Assembly: GCA_945829115.1 (NCBI GenBank)
Contig: CALZTP010000001.1
Location: 18,316 to 82,315 of the forward strand
Direction: 5' to 3'
Length of the DNA: 64,000 nucleotides
DNA from: an uncultured bacterium
Lineage (GTDB): Bacteria > Bacteroidota > Bacteroidia > Bacteroidales > Bacteroidaceae
The notes beneath the pieces were generated by a model, which was not told the DNA's origin, did no database searches, and saw only the letters and a list, made by a program, of their open reading frames with translations. This document shows, one piece after another, positions 44,389 through 58,548 of the stretch (positions are counted from its first letter, which is position 1; each line of letters begins with the position of its first letter). The position numbers and the translations under genes are program-made.

Positions 44389-46113
44389 ATGTTTAGAAAA
44401 ACAGTTCTTTTACTGCTTCTTTCTCTTTCATTGTCGGCTTCTGCTGACGAGTTCACACTTGGGGCTGACATCGGATGGTGTACGGAATATGAAAGCAAAG
44501 GCTATAAACTCTTCAATTACAACGGGGAAGAGCGAGAAGCTACAGCCCTAATGAAGGAGATGGGAATGAATGCAGTTCGTCTCCGCGTATGGGTTGACCC
44601 AAAGGCACATGGGAACTGGTGTAATGCTGCCGATGTGCTCACAAAAGCATTGCGTGCAAAGGCTCTTGGTATGGACGTGATGATTGACTTCCACTATAGC
44701 GACTGGTGGGCGGACCCTGCAAAGCAGAACATTCCAGCTGCATGGGAGAAAATGTCGTTTAAGAAGATGTGTAAGGCATTGGCGGCTCACACCATTGAGG
44801 TTCTCTCGCTTTTGAAAGAGAATGGCATTAATGTCAAATGGGTGCAGGTGGGCAATGAAACAAGAAATGGCATGCTTTGGTCGGTGGAAATGGATCCTAT
44901 CACTGGTTGGGAGAAAAAAGACGAGAAAGGAAACACCATCCTCACTCACTCCATGGGACATATAGACCATCACCCGAAACAGTATGCGGGATTTATTACT
45001 GCTGGCTATGACGCCGTGAAGAGTGTCTACCCAAATGCTATTGTTATTGTGCATCTTGACAACGGGTTTGACAATGCTATGTTCAACTACAACCTCGACA
45101 TCGTAAAAGAGAACGGTGGAAAATGGGACATGATAGGAATGTCTCTATACCCTTATTGGGCAATAGAGGCAGGAAGGGAACCGAACGCCAAAACCACCAT
45201 CGTTGACTGCATGAAGAACATCCGCCTTGTTTCAAAGAAATACAATTGTGATGTGATGATTACAGAGACTGGCTTTGAGGTTGACGAGAAAAGACCGTAT
45301 GTTATGCAGGAAGGGCGTGAATAGCTTGCAGAAATTATCACAAGGGCAAAGAACGAGACTGGGGGGCGCTGCAAGGGTGTTTTCTACTGGGAACCTACTT
45401 GTCACCCATCACAATATAAACTCGGAGCATTCACCGAAGATGGGCATCCAACAGAAATTCTTCGTGCTCTGAAGGATGTCAATCCAAACAATGCCAATAT
45501 CCCTTACGACCGTAAAAGGCTTATCATCCACACTAACCTTGGAGATATCACTGTGGAACTCTATAACGAAACTCCAGGACATCGAGACAACTTCATACGT
45601 CTGGCAGAGACAAAAGTCTTGAACGGTTCTCTATTCCATAGGGTAATTGCTAATTTCATGATTCAGGGTGGAGACCCTACAACAGCATCTGCTCCTCCTA
45701 CTTCGAAAGAGAAACCATCAGAACTCATTGGTGATGTTGACGCACTTACTCCAGAAGGTAAGAACACCATTCCTGCTGAAATACACTATCCACAGTTCTT
45801 CCATAAAAGGGGAGCACTAGCAGCAGCAAGAGCGCTTGACGAGGAAAACCCAAAATTCGACAGCTCTTCCTCACAGTTCTATATTGTCTGGGGACAATGG
45901 CCTTCTAAGGAGGGGCGTGCTCCTTACGTTCCTATGCTCGACTATTACAAGGATTTCCAGCAGCCAGGAACACCTTGGCTCGATGGTGGCTACACTGTCT
46001 TCGGGCAAGTTACTAATGGTCTTGACGTTGTGGAAAAGATTCAAGGAACAGAGACAGACTCTAACAACCGCCCCATCTCTGACATTAAAATACTCTCTAT
46101 TGAAAAAGAATAA
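44389..46113 (+). pseudogene. GH53 endo-beta-1,4-galactanase fused to a cyclophilin PPIase, interrupted by one in-frame TAG (45322-45324)
   Basis: Signal peptide; GH53 motifs VRLRVWV, DFHYSDWWADP, QVGNE, ITETG before the stop; GVFYWEP after it; the same frame continues into the cyclophilin (FHRVIANFMIQGGD, GALAAAR, SQFYIV, LDGGYTVFGQV). May be a readthrough CDS rather than a pseudogene. Confidence 0.8.
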
Positions 46114-46138
46114 AGCCGGGAAACACCCCGGCTTTTTT
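46112..46138. terminator. Intrinsic terminator, probably bidirectional
   Basis: AAAGCCGGG-AAACAC-CCCGGCTTTTTT. Confidence 0.8.
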
Positions 46139-46263
46139 CAACTTACTTTTCCTCTATAGTTTCCTCCTCACAGTTATCCATTTTCTTGCAAACTCACACT
46201 AATGGGCAGCAATACCGTTATTAACTCAGGCATCTAATACCAAGAGCTACTTATCTTCACCCC

Positions 46264-49396: not shown

Positions 49397-51892
49397 ATGG
49401 AAAAAAACTCTTTTGGATACTTCGACGACTACGCTCGGGAGTATGTCATTACAAACCCTGCAACTCCATTCCCTTGGATTAACTACCTCGGAAATGAAGA
49501 TTTCTTCGGACTAATAAGTAATACTGGTGGAGGATATAACTTCTACAAGGACGCAAAGTTCCGCCGTATCACACGATATAGGTACAATGGCGTGCCTATG
49601 GACAATGGAGGTCGCTATTTCTACATAAACGACAACGGAACTGTCTGGAATCCAGGCTGGAAACCTTGCAAGACCCCTCTCGACTACTATGAGTGTCGAC
49701 ATGGCATGAACTACACTCGCATTCTCGGATGCAAGAACGGTATTGAGGCTACTGCTCTCTTCTTTGTACCTCTGAAGACCTGGGCAGAGGTGCAGAAGCT
49801 TACTCTCCACAACACAACCGCAGAAGAGAAGAAAATAAAACTGTTCTCATTCGCTGAATGGTGTCTTTGGAATGCCGCTACTGACATGGAGAACTTCCAG
49901 CGCAACTGGTCTACAGGTGAGGTGGAGATTGACGGTGCCACCATCTATCACAAAACAGAATACAAGGAGCGCAGAAACCACTATGCCTACTACACCGTAA
50001 CAAATGCAGAGATTGACGGCTTTGACACCGACCGTGAATCGTTCATCGGACTCTACAACGAATTTGCTGACCCTCAGTGTGTACTGGCAGGAAAGGCAAG
50101 TAATTCTGTCGCTCATGGCTGGAGTCCTATTGCTTCTCATTATTTCGACATCACTCTGAAACCTGGAGAAAGTCGAGACTTTATCTTCCTTCTCGGATAT
50201 GTGGAAAACGAACAGGAGGAGAAATTCTCTAAAGAAGATATAGAAAGAAAAAAGAATGGAAGCCTACTCTCTTCACAAGACTCTGACGTCACACTCGTGA
50301 ACAAGGCGAGGGCACAGGAGACAATAGCTCGATTCTCTACCGTAGAGGCGGTAGACGAGGCTTTTGAAGAACTACACGAAATGTGGGATAATCTCCTCGA
50401 TAAATATGTCCTCAAGTCAGAAGACGAGCGTCTGGACCGTATGGTAAACATCTGGAATCAGTATCAGTGTATGATCACCTTCAACTTCTCACGATCTGCA
50501 TCATTCTTCGAAAGCGGTGTAGGAAGAGGAATGGGATTCCGCGACTCCAATCAAGACCTTGTGGGATTTGTTCATCAGGTGCCAAGTAGAGCAAGGCAAC
50601 GCATTATTGATATTGCCTCCACACAGTTCCCTGATGGTGGGTGCTACCATCAGTACCAGCCGCTGACAAAACGTGGCAACAACGATATCGGTGGCGGGTT
50701 CAACGACGACCCTATGTGGCTCATCTTCGGAACTGTTGCTTACATAAAAGAAACGGGAGACTTCTCTATTCTTGACGAAATGGTTCCTTGGGACAACGAA
50801 CCAGGAACAGAGGTCACACTCATGGAGCACCTTCGCATTTCTTTCAACCATGTCGTAGAAAACCTTGGTCCTCACGCTCTCCCTCTCATTGGGCGTGCCG
50901 ACTGGAACGACTGTCTGAATCTCAACTGCTTCTCTTGGGATCCAAATGAGTCTTTCCAGACAACAGAAAACAATTCAGAGGGTTCTAAGGCTGAATCGTT
51001 GATGATTGCAGGTCTTTTCGTGTTCAGCGGAAAGCAGTACGTGGAGCTTTGCCAACAGTTAGAAGGCTTCAAAGACGAAGCTCTCCGTGCTCAGAAATGC
51101 ATCGACAATATGATTGAGGCTGTTAAGAAGCACGGCTGGGACGGTGAGTGGTATCTCCGCGCCTATGACTTCTATGGCAACAAGATTGGCTCAAATGAAA
51201 ACGAGGAGGGAAAAATCTTTATCGAGTCACAGGGTTTCTGCACAATGGCTGGTATAGGCATAGAGGAAGGAATGGTTGACAAGGCTCTCGACTCCTGTAA
51301 GAAATATCTCGACTGTGAACATGGTATGGTGCTGAACAACCCTGCCTACACAACATACCATGTTGAGATGGGAGAAATCTCTTCCTACCCTGCTGGATAT
51401 AAGGAGAACGCAGGTATCTTCTGTCACAACAACCCTTGGGTTATCATTGGAGAAACAGTTGCAGGAAGAGGAAACGATGCTTGGGAGCACTATACAAAAA
51501 TCTGCCCTGCATGGATAAAAGACCAGCGACTCCACAAGGTAGAGCCATACGTATATTGCCAGATGGTGGCTGGAAAAGATGCTGCAAAACCTGGAGAGGG
51601 CAAGAACTCTTGGCTCACGGGAACAGCTGCTTGGAACTGGTATACCATCACACAATTTATTCTCGGCATCAAACCAACATACGATGGTATTGAAATAGAC
51701 CCTTGTCTGCCATCTTCAATGAAGAGATATAGTGTAAAGCGAGTAATCCGTGATGCTGTCTTCAATATCTCAGTAACAAACCCAGAAGGAAAGCAAAAGG
51801 GCGTTACATCTATAACCGTTGACGGAAAGCCTATTCAAGGAAACGTCATAAAGGCTACTCCAGGAGAGCACAACGTAGAGGTTATAATGTAA
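49397..51892 (+). CDS. GH94 phosphorylase, most likely cellobiose phosphorylase
   Basis: [44 protein letters not shown] (catalytic Asp), [18 protein letters not shown]; no signal peptide. Confidence 0.92.
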
Positions 51893-51906
51893 AAAAAAGA
51901 CAGAGT

Positions 51907-51937
51907 GCCGGCACTCCTTCTAAGTGCCGGTGTTTTG
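51907..51937 (+). terminator. Hairpin after GH94
   Basis: CCGGCACT/AGTGCCGG stem followed by TGTTTTG. Confidence 0.6.
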
Positions 51938-52046
51938 CTAATTCTCCAGCTTTACAACTTCCCTCCGTTTTACAGCCTCCATGGGTTGCTATGCCGTCAA
52001 TAATCTGGGCATCTAATGGAGTCCCCTTTCAAAAAAACTAAATTCA

Positions 52047-53771
52047 ATGAAAACAATTATCCTTTCAACCCTTCTCTCTGGCCTTGCTCTTGGCGCATCT
52101 GCCCAGAGTCCTATAAAAGTAAACCAAATCGGCTATCAAACTAACGAGCAGAAGATTGCCGTCATAGAACCTTCCGTAAAAGCGAAGTCCTTCTCCCTAA
52201 AAGACGCAAAGGGAAGAACCGTCTGGAGCGGAAAGGCAATCAGCACGATAAAATCGCCTTTCAATGAAAAAGTGCGCGAGATTGTTGACTTCTCAAAGGT
52301 CTCACAACCAGGACGCTACACGCTCGTTGCGGGAAAGAACCGTCAAAAGGTTACAATCTCCGAAAGCCCATACTTTGAAGTTTCCAAAGCAGCCCTAAAG
52401 GCATTCTATCTGCAGAGGACAGGTGTAGAGATAGAAAAGGAATATGCAGGAGAGTATTCTCGTCCTGCTGCACATCTCGACAATAAGGTGATGGTTCACC
52501 CTTCTGCCGCTTCTCCAGAACGTCCTGCAGGAACCATTATCTCTTCTCCTTACGGCTGGTATGATGCTGGCGACTACAATAAATACATCGTCAACTCAGC
52601 ATTCACCATCGGCATTATGCTGCAGTCTTACCAAGTAAACAAAGACTATTTCGACCGTCTGAACGTGAACATTCCAGAATCGGGAAATAAAGTTCCTGAC
52701 CTCCTCGACGAGATTATGTTTAATCTCAAATGGATGCTGACTATGCAGGATCCTTACGATGGTGGTGTTTACCATAAGCTCACAACACCAAACTTCGAGG
52801 GATTCATAATGCCAAAGGAGTGCAAGCAGCAAAGGTATGTTGTACAGAAGAGCACACAAGCAGCTCTCGACTTCGCTGCCACCATGGCTCTCGCTGCAAG
52901 AATATACAATGCCTACCCAGAGTTCCAGAACTTCTGCCAGGAGGCTCTCAAAGCCGCTGAACGTGCCTATGCTTGGGCTGTGAAAAATCCTACTGCCTAC
53001 TACGACCAACCTGGCAACAACACAAAGTTCGACCCAGACATAGCCACAGGCATGTACGGAGACCGCATGTCGTCTGATGAATTCTTCTGGGCAGCAACAG
53101 AGCTGTTCCTCTCTACTCACCAAACGGCATACCTCGAGCAGGCAAAGCAGTTCCTCCCTAATGAGTTCACAATGCCTACGTGGGGTGATGTGTCTGCATT
53201 GGGCATTATGCAATGGCTCAACCAGCAGATTCTCGCTACTCCAGAGGCAAAGGCAATAGACATAGAGAACGTTAAGAGTGCAATGAAGGCATTCTGCAAC
53301 AAGAATGTTGAAGGCCTGGAAACATCTGCGTTCTATTCTGTATTCGGAAACATGGAGGAAGATTTCATATGGGGTAGCAATTCAGAGATGTGTGCTGGTC
53401 GTAGCATCACACTGATGTATGAATACGCTCTTTCCAAAGACGAGAAATATCGTAAAGCGGCATTAACCGCCCTCGACCATATTGCTGGACGTAATGCAAC
53501 TGGCTACTGCTACATAACTGGCTTCGGCACTCAACAGGTGATGAACCCCCATCAAAGACTCTCTGCTGCTGACGGTATAAAGAACCCATTGCCTGGATTC
53601 CTTGCAGGTGGTGCCAACAAAGGTCAGCAAGACAAAGACAACGTGCCTCCATACCCTTCCTCTTCCCCAGACGAGTCGTATATGGACCATGTAGCAAGCT
53701 ATGCATCTAATGAGATTGCCATTAACTGGAATGCATACCTCGTAGCTCTCTTCGGCTGGATTGCAAAATAA
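52047..53771 (+). CDS. GH9 endoglucanase with an N-terminal Ig-like (CelD_N) domain
   Basis: Signal peptide; IKVNQIGY, GWYDAGDYNKY, PHQRLS, YASNEIAINWNA. Confidence 0.95.
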   Translation: MKTIILSTLLSGLALGASAQSPIKVNQIGYQTNEQKIAVIEPSVKAKSFSLKDAKGRTVWSGKAISTIKSPFNEKVREIVDFSKVSQPGRYTLVAGKNRQKVTISESPYFEVSKAALKAFYLQRTGVEIEKEYAGEYSRPAAHLDNKVMVHPSAASPERPAGTIISSPYGWYDAGDYNKYIVNSAFTIGIMLQSYQVNKDYFDRLNVNIPESGNKVPDLLDEIMFNLKWMLTMQDPYDGGVYHKLTTPNFEGFIMPKECKQQRYVVQKSTQAALDFAATMALAARIYNAYPEFQNFCQEALKAAERAYAWAVKNPTAYYDQPGNNTKFDPDIATGMYGDRMSSDEFFWAATELFLSTHQTAYLEQAKQFLPNEFTMPTWGDVSALGIMQWLNQQILATPEAKAIDIENVKSAMKAFCNKNVEGLETSAFYSVFGNMEEDFIWGSNSEMCAGRSITLMYEYALSKDEKYRKAALTALDHIAGRNATGYCYITGFGTQQVMNPHQRLSAADGIKNPLPGFLAGGANKGQQDKDNVPPYPSSSPDESYMDHVASYASNEIAINWNAYLVALFGWIAK

Positions 53772-56727: not shown

Positions 56728-58548
56728 CTACTCTTCTTCATTCCCTTTCTCGTCTGCCTTGAATCTCTTGTATTCGGCAGGGGTGATGCTGAATCGTTCG
56801 GAGAAGAGACGGTAGTAGTTCTGCCTGTTGGCAAAACCAGACTCTAAGGCTATTCCTTCTATGCTGAGGTTCTCCTTGTATTTTAAAAGATAGAGAGAAT
56901 AGTCGAGACGGAGGTTGTTGAGATACCTCGGGAACGTAACACCAGAGACCTTACCAAAGGCAGAGGAGAGGGTGCGGAGGGTGAGTCCCGGAATGAGCGC
57001 AACAGCTTTGTTGCGGTCGAAAGAGGCATCACGGAACAGCATATCCTTCTCGATAAGATCCATTAGTTTCAGAATCTTGTCTTCTGATTCTGTGTCTATT
57101 TGGGCAGAGGCAGGGGTATCTTCAGCAGAGGCTGGGGCATAGACATTTTCAGCAGAAGTTGGAGCGTTTTTTTCATTCTCTGAAACATTCCTTTCTTCTT
57201 TTCTTCCAGCTATTCCACTTCCTGCTATTCTTCTATCCACAAACTTCTCATGTTTCAAAGCCATGAGTTCATCAATGGTTGCTATGTTTGCCTTGTTCTT
57301 CTGATAGATAACCCTATTGTAATAAACAACAATAGTTATAACGGCAATAGCAATTAGCAATGCCACAACAACAATCCATACAAAGATTCTGCCTCGCTCT
57401 AACATTTCCTGCTGCTCTTGAATGAGAAGAACTTTGTTTTGGGTGTCGTACATGATGGAGAGTTCTGTGGTCTCTAAGTCTCGCTCACGGTTTGCAATAC
57501 TGTCTTTGACTGCCATAATGACCTCCATAGTAGACATAGCGGCATCGTGTTGTCCCATCTCCTTTTCCAGTTCCTTCTCGAAGAAGAGAATCTCATTGGC
57601 ATAATAGCTGTTCACAGTGTCCATGCTCTGCACAAAGAAGTGCTTCGCATCACGGAGGGTTTCCTTGGCAAGTGCAAACTGTCGAGATTTTATAAGGTAT
57701 GGAAGGAGTCGTTTCTTTCCTTGAGGGGTGTAGGAGAGTTCCATGGTTCTGAGCTTGTCGTAATAATCCTTAGCCTTTGCAATCTCACCTTTTTCACTAT
57801 GGCACATCTCTAAGATGTAGTAGAAGTCGGCATAGCGCGTCTCCACAACAGTCTTGTCTTCACCGCTCTCCTCCATATTCTTCAAAGCGTTCTCACAGTC
57901 ATCGGCAAGTGCTATGACAGAATCGTAGTCCTTATCACCGAGAAAGGTGTTCATCTTCTCAAAAATTGTGTAAACAATATCGCTGTAACTGCCCTTACCC
58001 TCTTTTATTAGGTCATACTGAATTAAGAGGCTCTCATCGTAATATGCCAGCGCCTGCTGCTGCATATGCATACCAGAGAAGCAGCTTCCCACCACCTCCA
58101 AGAAGTGGGCCTCCGCCTCTTTGTCGCCTATGCTATGTGCAAGCAGGTTTCCTTCGTTTGCGTATGTCACTCCTTTGCTATATTGACTACTCTTATAGGC
58201 AAGCATGGAGAGCATCTTCAGTGTCTTGATAAGAGTGACAGTATCTTCCCTTGTCTCTGGATTGTAATAGATGCGCTCCGCATAGTATTGTGCAACACGT
58301 GTTTGATTGTATGCGTTCTGATAGGTAATAGCCCTCAAGCCGTTTATGTCGTTCACACTCAGTAGTCCGCGTTCCTCTGCAGAGTCAAGGAGATGGAGGG
58401 CACGCTCTGGTTGGGTGAAATGAATTGCGCGCACTGTGTCCATAAGTGCTTCGGCAGTCACGATCCCTGCATTCTCTCGTCTGTTTTCAGAGCAAGCTGT
58501 CAGAAGAAGGAATATAGAAATTGCTGTTAGTAGAAAGTTTCTTGTCAT
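56728..58548 (-). CDS. Transmembrane AraC regulator: lipobox, TPR-like periplasmic region, TM helix, AraC HTH
   Basis: LLTAC; helical TPR-like region; TM IFVWIVVVALLIAIAVITIVVYY; HTH (YLNNLRLDY, ESGFANRQNYYRLF); ends in TAG. Confidence 0.88.
   Translation of the reverse strand: MTRNFLLTAISIFLLLTACSENRRENAGIVTAEALMDTVRAIHFTQPERALHLLDSAEERGLLSVNDINGLRAITYQNAYNQTRVAQYYAERIYYNPETREDTVTLIKTLKMLSMLAYKSSQYSKGVTYANEGNLLAHSIGDKEAEAHFLEVVGSCFSGMHMQQQALAYYDESLLIQYDLIKEGKGSYSDIVYTIFEKMNTFLGDKDYDSVIALADDCENALKNMEESGEDKTVVETRYADFYYILEMCHSEKGEIAKAKDYYDKLRTMELSYTPQGKKRLLPYLIKSRQFALAKETLRDAKHFFVQSMDTVNSYYANEILFFEKELEKEMGQHDAAMSTMEVIMAVKDSIANRERDLETTELSIMYDTQNKVLLIQEQQEMLERGRIFVWIVVVALLIAIAVITIVVYYNRVIYQKNKANIATIDELMALKHEKFVDRRIAGSGIAGRKEERNVSENEKNAPTSAENVYAPASAEDTPASAQIDTESEDKILKLMDLIEKDMLFRDASFDRNKAVALIPGLTLRTLSSAFGKVSGVTFPRYLNNLRLDYSLYLLKYKENLSIEGIALESGFANRQNYYRLFSERFSITPAEYKRFKADEKGNEEE

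What the first reader, a model, noticed from the sequence alone, without database searches (positions are those of the whole stretch)
45301..45560. Single in-frame amber codon inside an otherwise continuous GH53-cyclophilin reading frame
Seen: the frame from ATG 44389 runs to TAA 46113 (574 codons plus the final stop), broken only by TAG at 45322-45324 (...QEGRE-TAG-LAEIITRAKNETGGRCKGVFYWEP...). The GH53 last-strand motif GVFYWEP lies after the stop. The cyclophilin has no ATG of its own, and the track GTG start at 45553 would remove its first strand (RLIIHTNLGDITV). Only 2 of about 40 genes here end in TAG. Inference: most simply a recent CAG>TAG nonsense mutation or a sequencing error, but the UAG-C context is leaky, so readthrough is possible. 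Known: some Prevotella-infecting Lak phages and some crAss-like phages reassign TAG to Gln, so suppression during infection would restore the full protein. That link is speculative.
Basis: partly seen in the sequence, partly recalled or inferred. Interest (0 to 1): 0.7.

Follow-up and report, generated by a model that had tools for sequence, protein, structure and literature searches.

The report
Private nonsense mutation in Prevotella galactanase gene
One pig-gut Prevotella strain carries a recent single-base change (CAG to TAG) that cuts short a secreted galactanase-cyclophilin fusion enzyme; every relative examined has a sense codon there, so this is an ordinary broken gene, not programmed readthrough.

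Summary
The frame ATG 44389 to TAA 46113 (574 codons) is broken only by TAG at 45322-45324, inside the GH53 domain and upstream of a fused cyclophilin domain.

The T is real. An independent Logan assembly of one 2018 pig-gut metagenome run (X1, word depth about 16) and an ENA contig (coverage 15.9) both reproduce it.

The T is also private:
- 31-mers spanning it occur only in X1 across the public run index.
- Seven other runs carrying the same gene read C, giving CAG (Gln).
- All 13 intact 574-aa alleles read from the same 90% cluster have GREQLAE.
- Among 83 fetched loci the codon is CAG 56, CAA 20, another sense codon 6, and TAG once. That locus is identical to the window, so probably its own sample.

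There are no other differences within about 250 nt either side of the TAG. The clustered differences further downstream have dN/dS 0.10 and are shared with intact alleles, so there is no decay after the stop.

Elsewhere in the window TAG is a normal terminator, no suppressor tRNA is present, and no other gene is interrupted.

The stop falls in helix alpha-7 of the TIM barrel. It removes beta-8 (GVFYWE), alpha-8 and the whole cyclophilin, so this is most likely a null allele. The case is ordinary and of low interest. The widespread, undescribed GH53-cyclophilin fusion is a minor side note.

The parts
44389..46115 (+). Whole GH53-cyclophilin fusion gene (574 codons plus TAA), interrupted at codon 312
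   Evidence: More than 120 full-length fused orthologue clusters. Intact 574-aa alleles of the same species.
44389..44448 (+). Probable N-terminal signal peptide (MFRKTVLLLLLSLSLSASA|DE). Export signal for the whole fusion.
   Evidence: Hydrophobic helix at aa 2-16 followed by a low-confidence linker in the model. Sequence read directly. The cleavage site is inferred.
44458..45414 (+). GH53 endo-beta-1,4-galactanase domain (aa 24-342), a (beta/alpha)8 barrel
   Evidence: Pfam PF07745, E 6.9e-75. PDB 6GP5/6GPA, E 7e-70. Foldseek TM 0.91 to 6GP5.
44857..44859 (+). Codon for Glu157 in VQVGNE, the presumed acid/base catalyst on beta-4, upstream of the stop
   Evidence: Invariant in 23 and in 34 aligned homologues. 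The catalytic role comes from general knowledge of clan GH-A/GH53.
45265..45267 (+). Codon for Glu293 in ITETG, the presumed nucleophile on beta-7, upstream of the stop
   Evidence: Invariant. Strand E288-294 in the model. The role comes from family knowledge; the 2GFT entry title names E263A as the nucleophile mutant of the B. licheniformis enzyme.
45322..45324 (+). The amber codon TAG (codon 312). The ancestral codon is CAG (Gln). T at 45322 is the private mutation.
45370..45387 (+). Strand beta-8 of the barrel (aa 328-333, CKGVFY of the GVFYWEP motif), lost in the truncated product
   Evidence: DSSP strand E328-333 in the AF2 model. G330, Y333, W334 and P336 are invariant.
45523..46104 (+). 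Cyclophilin-type peptidyl-prolyl isomerase domain (aa 379-572), not translated in this allele unless the stop is read through
   Evidence: Pfam PF00160, E 1.1e-39. Foldseek hits to cyclophilins.
45553..46113 (+). Orphan 186-aa ORF from GTG that gene callers annotate as a separate cyclophilin. It lacks the first strand and any signal peptide.
   Evidence: Called as a separate gene on the ENA contig. Present in the protein collection as P0122.
46112..46140 (.). GC-rich hairpin with flanking T/A runs straight after TAA. A likely bidirectional intrinsic terminator shared with the convergent CitMHS transporter gene.
   Evidence: Sequence AAAGCCGGGAAACACCCCGGCTTTTTT. Terminator-like hit at 46135-46112.

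Best explanation
A recent, strain-private C-to-T transition changed codon 312 from CAG (Gln) to TAG. The gene encodes a secreted GH53 endo-beta-1,4-galactanase fused to a cyclophilin-type prolyl isomerase, in a pig-gut Prevotella/Prevotellaceae bacterium.

The genome uses the standard code, so translation ends at the TAG. The product is a 311-aa fragment that keeps both catalytic glutamates but lacks half of helix alpha-7, strand beta-8 (GVFYWE), helix alpha-8 and the whole cyclophilin domain. An incomplete (beta/alpha)8 barrel is expected not to fold or bind substrate, so this allele is most likely null, a nascent pseudogene.

Shown here: the mutation is real, it is private, the ancestral state is CAG, there is no downstream decay, and the structural elements named above are removed. 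Inferred: loss of enzyme activity, and that any cyclophilin made from the GTG at 45553 would be N-terminally truncated, would lack a signal peptide and would be non-functional.
For: 1. The T is real.
- The Logan contig of run X1 (6,048 bp, word depth 16.4) is identical to the window over 44681-46115. No alternative C contig exists in that run.
- The ENA contig NODE_30 (56.6 kb, cov 15.9) is identical to the window over 6,936 bp.

2. The T is private.
- A 61-nt query in which every 31-mer spans the SNP is held only by X1 in the public run index.
- X2, X3, X4, X5, X6, X9 and X12 all read C at 45322. In X5 and X9 it is the sole difference in 351 nt.

3. Intact alleles are the norm in this species.
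- The 90% cluster has 85 members. P0001 and the 12 further members fetched (11 of 574 aa, one of 643 aa) all read GREQLAE. The 12 listed with contig counts were seen on 52 contigs.

4. There is no conservation of the stop.
- Across 83 loci the codon is CAG 56, CAA 20, other sense 6. The one TAG is L003, which is identical to the window.

5. The mutation is recent.
- Against L001/L002 there is 1 synonymous difference in codons 1-311 and none in codons 313-396.
- Codons 397-574 then carry 22 synonymous and 8 non-synonymous differences, dN/dS 0.10.
- Seven of the eight window residues occur in intact alleles. The eighth pair (A482/L483) is in contigs from X2 and X3, samples where only C was seen at 45322.

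6. The genome uses the standard code.
- An AraC-family gene ends at TAG 11 aa after its terminal HTH domain.
- The only tRNA in the window is tRNA-Glu.
- No other gene is interrupted, and rimP/nusA, gyrB-like, iPGM, sufB and recO are intact.

7. Structure.
- AF2 model of the intact allele: pLDDT 92.1.
- Elements: alpha-7 303-323, beta-8 328-333, alpha-8 356-364, cyclophilin from 377.
Against: Raw reads were not available, only assembler contigs, which drop rare variants. The T:C ratio within sample X1 is therefore unknown, and both assemblies derive from the same data.

Loss of activity of the 311-aa fragment is inferred, not measured. Both catalytic Glu residues are retained.

The run-index test rested on only 3 sampled words.
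Confidence: 0.9

Rival explanations
1. Sequencing or assembly error, or a minority variant promoted to consensus. On this view the organism really has CAG.
For: Only one sample shows the T. All records with the truncated product are consistent with a single data set.
Against: Two different assemblers give T at about 16x depth, and no C-allele contig appears in X1. A random Illumina substitution error does not reach consensus at that depth.
Confidence: 0.05
2. Programmed or conditional readthrough. The UAG would be decoded as Gln by leaky termination in the UAG-C context, or by a suppressor tRNA supplied by a TAG-recoded (code 15) Lak or crAss-like phage, restoring the full-length enzyme.
For: - The ancestral residue is Gln, so Gln insertion would recreate the wild-type protein.
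- The base after the stop is C.
- TAG-recoded phages and prophages of Prevotella exist.
- The downstream frame is still intact.
Against: - The TAG is not conserved in any relative or any other sample.
- The intact downstream frame is explained by recency: there are no private substitutions around the stop.
- There is no suppressor tRNA or phage gene in the window.
- TAG terminates other genes here.
- CAG to TAG is one of only eight single-base routes to TAG and is a C-to-T transition, so the match to Gln is not informative.
Confidence: 0.02
3. A functional split. The truncated GH53 and a separately initiated cyclophilin (GTG 45553) would both be made and work as two proteins, as the public annotation implies.
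For: Gene callers predict two ORFs of 311 aa and 186 aa. Both catalytic glutamates lie upstream of the stop.
Against: - The 311-aa product lacks beta-8 and alpha-8 of the barrel, including invariant G330, Y333, W334 and P336.
- The GTG ORF lacks the first cyclophilin strand (Pfam positions 3-12) and the signal peptide.
- No relative has this split arrangement. Related loci either encode the fusion in one frame or have GH53 alone.
Confidence: 0.03

Closest known systems
Bacteroides thetaiotaomicron GH53 endo-beta-1,4-galactanase (PDB 6GP5/6GPA)
   Same: Same family and fold. Sequence E 7e-70. Foldseek TM 0.91, rmsd 2.0 A, 39% identity. Same GNE and ExG catalytic motifs and the same FYWEP beta-8 motif (alignment).
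   Different: - The window's gene carries a roughly 25-aa insertion (aa 166-190).
- It has a C-terminal cyclophilin domain that the B. thetaiotaomicron enzyme lacks.
- In this strain it is truncated at codon 312.
Ordinary nonsense-mutation pseudogene or strain-level loss-of-function allele in gut Bacteroidota
   Same: A single C-to-T change creates a premature stop. It is private to one sample, intact alleles dominate in the species, and there is no compensating feature.
   Different: Nothing unusual, except that it is very young: no secondary mutations have accumulated yet.
TAG-to-Gln recoding (genetic code 15) in Lak, crAss-like and other gut phages
   Same: The codon and the amino acid that would be inserted are the same. 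The host clade (Prevotella/Bacteroidetes) is the same.
   Different: Recoded phages carry many in-frame TAGs concentrated in late genes, plus suppressor tRNAs. Here a single TAG sits in one chromosomal housekeeping-type neighbourhood with standard-code genes and no suppressor tRNA.
Streptococcal PpiB-type cyclophilins (PDB 7L6Y/7L6Z)
   Same: The closest solved relatives of the C-terminal domain by sequence. E 5e-23, Foldseek probability 1.0. They include a long insertion between the core strands.
   Different: Those are stand-alone proteins. Here the domain is fused behind a glycoside hydrolase and is exported using that enzyme's signal peptide.

Membership tests
Glycoside hydrolase family 53 (endo-beta-1,4-galactanase) | Significant match to the family profile | tested here: met
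   PF07745: E 6.9e-75, 252.6 bits against a cut-off of 24, aa 24-342.
Glycoside hydrolase family 53 (endo-beta-1,4-galactanase) | Two catalytic glutamates, on beta-4 (GNE) and beta-7 (ExG) | tested here: met
   E157 and E293 are invariant across 34 homologues. The assignment of roles comes from family knowledge.
Glycoside hydrolase family 53 (endo-beta-1,4-galactanase) | Complete (beta/alpha)8 barrel encoded in one translated product | tested here: not met
   In this allele the stop at codon 312 lies within alpha-7. Beta-8 (328-333) and alpha-8 (356-364) are lost. Intact alleles meet this feature.
Cyclophilin-type peptidyl-prolyl isomerase | Significant match to the family profile and fold | tested here: met
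   PF00160: E 1.1e-39, profile positions 3-158 of 159. Foldseek hits to many cyclophilins.
Cyclophilin-type peptidyl-prolyl isomerase | Translated as a complete domain in this strain | tested here: not met
   The domain lies downstream of the TAG. The only in-frame start is GTG at codon 389, inside the domain.
Programmed stop-codon readthrough or recoding site | The stop codon is conserved at the same position across lineages | tested here: not met
   Of 83 loci, 82 have a sense codon and the only TAG is in the window's own sample. Thirteen intact alleles of the same species have Gln. Seven other runs read C.
Programmed stop-codon readthrough or recoding site | Purifying selection downstream that post-dates the stop | tested here: inconclusive
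   Downstream dN/dS is 0.10. However, those differences are shared with intact alleles and so pre-date the stop. No substitution is private to the TAG haplotype.
Programmed stop-codon readthrough or recoding site | A cognate suppressor tRNA or a stimulatory element | tested here: not met
   The only tRNA in the 64-kb window is tRNA-Glu(UUC). The rest of the genome and co-resident phages cannot be tested here. Downstream RNA structure was not examined.
Genome-wide TAG reassignment (genetic code 15) | Multiple in-frame TAGs in conserved genes, and TAG not used as a terminator | tested here: not met
   This is the only interrupted sense frame. Two other genes end at TAG, one of them directly after its C-terminal domain.
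Nonsense-mutation pseudogene | A single premature stop relative to intact orthologues, derived by one base change and limited to one lineage | tested here: met
   CAG to TAG, with the T at 45322 found only in run X1.

The most novel reading that the evidence does not exclude
The TAG allele might persist in this strain because the UAG is decoded as Gln, either at a low constitutive level in the UAG-C context or conditionally. The conditional route would be infection by a TAG-to-Gln recoded Prevotella phage that supplies a suppressor tRNA. Either way a host carbohydrate-active enzyme would be restored to its exact wild-type sequence.
Probability: 0.02. Interest if true: 0.6.

Novelty: already known. 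Interest (0 to 1): 0.1.

Why it matters
It matters little biologically. It is one strain's loss-of-function allele of a pectic-galactan-degrading enzyme, the kind of private polymorphism expected in any gut metagenome.

In practice it shows that the public annotation of this contig as two genes (a 311-aa GH53 and a 186-aa cyclophilin) is an artefact of a nonsense mutation. It also shows that a lone in-frame TAG in a Prevotella genome should not be read as evidence of phage-linked recoding without checking conservation.

The intact GH53-cyclophilin fusion is common in Prevotellaceae and apparently uncharacterised. That is the only aspect that might merit follow-up.

Tried and rejected
1. C-allele run search. 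The C allele was instead confirmed by laying contigs of seven runs.

2. Species identification. The organism is therefore named only as Prevotella/Prevotellaceae from pig gut.

3. Decay downstream of the stop. This was considered because all 8 amino-acid differences from P0001 lie after the TAG. It was rejected for three reasons:
- The differences start 255 nt after the stop.
- dN/dS is 0.10.
- The variant residues recur in intact alleles.
The pattern fits a recombinant or mosaic allele.

4. A second split gene. The same-frame neighbours at 4535-5002/3272-4531 and 35479-37473/33805-35325 turned out to be normal rimP/nusA and gyrB-like/iPGM pairs.

5. Literature. A search for a GH53-cyclophilin fusion found only unrelated fungal and oomycete papers.

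6. Promoters. A sigma-70 style promoter scan gave no more hits than shuffled sequence, and it is not appropriate for Bacteroidota anyway.

Full report
OBSERVATION

The sequence is as described. Translating 44389-46115 on the + strand gives 574 sense positions ending at TAA 46113-46115. The only internal stop is TAG at 45322-45324, codon 312, in the context ...QEGRE*LAEIITRAKNETGGRCKGVFYWEP..., and the next base is C.

Pfam places a GH53 domain at aa 24-342 (E 6.9e-75), so it runs across the stop. A cyclophilin-type isomerase domain sits at aa 379-572 (E 1.1e-39). The first in-frame start after the stop is GTG 45553 (codon 389), ten residues into the cyclophilin profile. The first in-frame ATG is 45658.

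Among 39 long non-overlapping ORFs the stops are TAA 31, TGA 5 and TAG 3 including this one.

WHAT THE GENE IS

The N-terminal part is closest to the solved Bacteroides thetaiotaomicron endo-beta-1,4-galactanase 6GP5/6GPA, with sequence E 7e-70. An AlphaFold2 model of the intact allele (pLDDT 92.1, pTM 0.89) superposes on 6GP5 with TM 0.91. The C-terminal part matches cyclophilins, and no PDB entry covers both domains.

A hydrophobic N-terminus (MFRKTVLLLLLSLSLSASA|DE) looks like a signal peptide. That is an inference.

The fused architecture is not peculiar to this window. A protein search returned 7,665 hits. The best 120 clusters are all proteins of 514-646 aa carrying both Pfam domains, and the few that are named are Prevotella or Prevotellaceae.

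Neighbouring genes are chromosomal: sufB, a PALP/TrpB-like enzyme, a CitMHS transporter, AraC regulators, GH94, GH9, recO, dus, rimP, nusA, a gyrB-like gene and iPGM. A hairpin with flanking T/A runs follows the TAA.

IS THE TAG REAL?

Run X1, a 2018 pig-gut metagenome, holds 99% of the gene's sampled words. Its Logan contig (6,048 bp, word depth 16.4) is identical to the window from 44681 to 46115, including T at 45322. No alternative contig carries C in that run.

An ENA metagenome contig (NODE_30, 56.6 kb, coverage 15.9) carries the same 311-aa and 186-aa ORFs and is identical to the window over 6,936 bp. The T is therefore the consensus of about 16x data under two assemblers. Raw reads were not available, so the exact allele fraction within the sample is unknown.

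IS THE TAG SHARED?

It is not.

- Run index: a 61-nt query in which every 31-mer spans position 45322 is held only by X1. Eighteen other runs hold 73-82% of the gene's words.
- Other runs: laying contigs of X2, X3, X4, X5, X6, X9 and X12 shows C at 45322 in every one. In X5 and X9 it is the only difference in 351 bases.
- Same species: the 90%-identity cluster containing the window's two fragments has 85 members. P0001 and the 12 further members I fetched (11 of 574 aa, one of 643 aa) all read GREQLAE.
- Wider family: across 83 fetched loci the aligned codon is CAG in 56, CAA in 20 and another sense codon in 6. It is TAG only in L003, which is identical to the window and so probably the same sample.

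HOW OLD IS IT?

I compared the window with the intact alleles L001 and L002:

| Region | Synonymous differences | Non-synonymous differences |
|---|---|---|
| Codons 1-311 | 1 | 0 |
| Codon 312 | the C/T itself | |
| Codons 313-396 | 0 | 0 |
| Codons 397-574 | 22 | 8 |

For codons 397-574, dS is 0.21, dN is 0.020 and dN/dS is 0.10.

The eight downstream amino-acid differences are not decay. Seven of the window's residues occur in other intact alleles. The A482/L483 pair is shared with contigs from X2 and X3, samples in which only C was seen at 45322. The 3' block is therefore a different, selected allele joined by recombination. The TAG sits alone on its haplotype, which means it arose very recently.

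DOES THIS GENOME READ TAG AS A STOP?

It does. An AraC-family gene (56728-58548, minus strand) ends at TAG 11 residues after its C-terminal HTH domain. The only tRNA in the window is tRNA-Glu. A scan for same-frame open stretches separated by one stop found no other interrupted gene. The other pairs are antisense shadows or ordinary neighbours such as rimP/nusA.

CONSEQUENCE

In the model, strand beta-7 (288-294) carries the invariant E293. Helix alpha-7 spans 303-323, beta-8 is 328-333 (within GVFYWEP), alpha-8 is 356-364, and the cyclophilin begins at 377.

The stop at 312 keeps both catalytic glutamates (E157 and E293, invariant). It removes half of alpha-7, beta-8 with the invariant G330/Y333/W334/P336, alpha-8 and the whole cyclophilin.

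From general knowledge of clan GH-A barrels, a seven-strand fragment should not fold or form the -1 subsite. I therefore infer a null allele. A cyclophilin started at GTG 45553 would lack its first strand and any export signal.

READTHROUGH AND PHAGE SUPPRESSION

The literature does support that Lak and crAss-like phages of Prevotella/Bacteroidetes recode TAG, with TAG to Gln confirmed by proteomics (bioRxiv 10.1101/2021.08.26.457843; PMC9523058). Nothing ties that to this locus, however.

The ancestral residue being Gln is uninformative. CAG to TAG is one of the few single-base routes to TAG and is a C-to-T transition. Background near-cognate decoding of UAG could make traces of wild-type protein (my own knowledge, untested here), but that is not a programmed feature.

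VERDICT

This is a real, private and very recent nonsense mutation creating a probable null allele (confidence 0.9). The rivals are an assembly artefact or minority variant (0.05), a functional split into two proteins (0.03) and programmed or phage-dependent readthrough (0.02).

The kind of event is already known and its interest is low. The widespread but apparently undescribed GH53-cyclophilin fusion (one search found no relevant paper) is recorded as a side observation.

Noticed in passing
window 44389-46115; proteins P0001-P0120: The GH53 galactanase fused to a C-terminal cyclophilin is a widespread single-gene architecture in Prevotella/Prevotellaceae. At least 120 clusters at 90% identity carry both domains. 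Bacteroidaceae and other Bacteroidales loci matched only the GH53 part. The AF2 pTM of 0.89 suggests a fixed inter-domain arrangement. No PDB entry has both domains, and a full-text search found no paper on it.
   Followed up: partly
window 45577-46100: There is an abrupt change in divergence from the closest intact alleles. dS is 0.005 over codons 1-311 and 0 over codons 313-396, against 0.21 over codons 397-574. Different runs share different sub-blocks. This looks like a mosaic, recombinant allele structure within the species, with a breakpoint near 45577.
   Followed up: partly
window 44884-44958 (aa 166-190): A roughly 25-residue insertion (VEMDPITGWEKKDEKGNTILTHSMG) sits in the GH53 barrel relative to the B. 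thetaiotaomicron enzyme. It is absent from some fused relatives (P0064, P0093, P0105). The model shows it as extra beta-strands at lower confidence.
   Followed up: no
window 45697-45810 (aa 437-474): A long insertion in the cyclophilin domain has almost no regular secondary structure in the model. It is missing in the shortest relatives (P0115, P0120). The closest solved cyclophilins are the streptococcal PpiB proteins 7L6Y/7L6Z.
   Followed up: no
window 44679-44736: In every metagenome laid, word depth jumps 5- to 20-fold and contigs break over the DFHYSDWWADPAKQ-coding stretch, with loose ends leading into other sequences. This conserved GH53 motif is shared nearly identically at the DNA level with other community members' GH53 genes, so it is an assembly-graph tangle and not a feature of this genome.
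   Followed up: no
L003 3001-3936 and 4165-4725 (= window 44389-45324 and 45553-46113): Public gene calls split the locus into a 311-aa 'GH53' and a 186-aa 'cyclophilin' starting at GTG. Both fragments are stored as separate proteins in the sequence collection (P0121, P0122). This is an annotation artefact of the nonsense mutation.
   Followed up: yes
window 49397-53771: A GH94 (cellobiose/cellodextrin phosphorylase-like) gene and a GH9 endoglucanase with a CelD_N domain lie side by side about 3 kb downstream, after an AraC regulator. The GH9 product is also 574 aa long, by coincidence.
   Followed up: no
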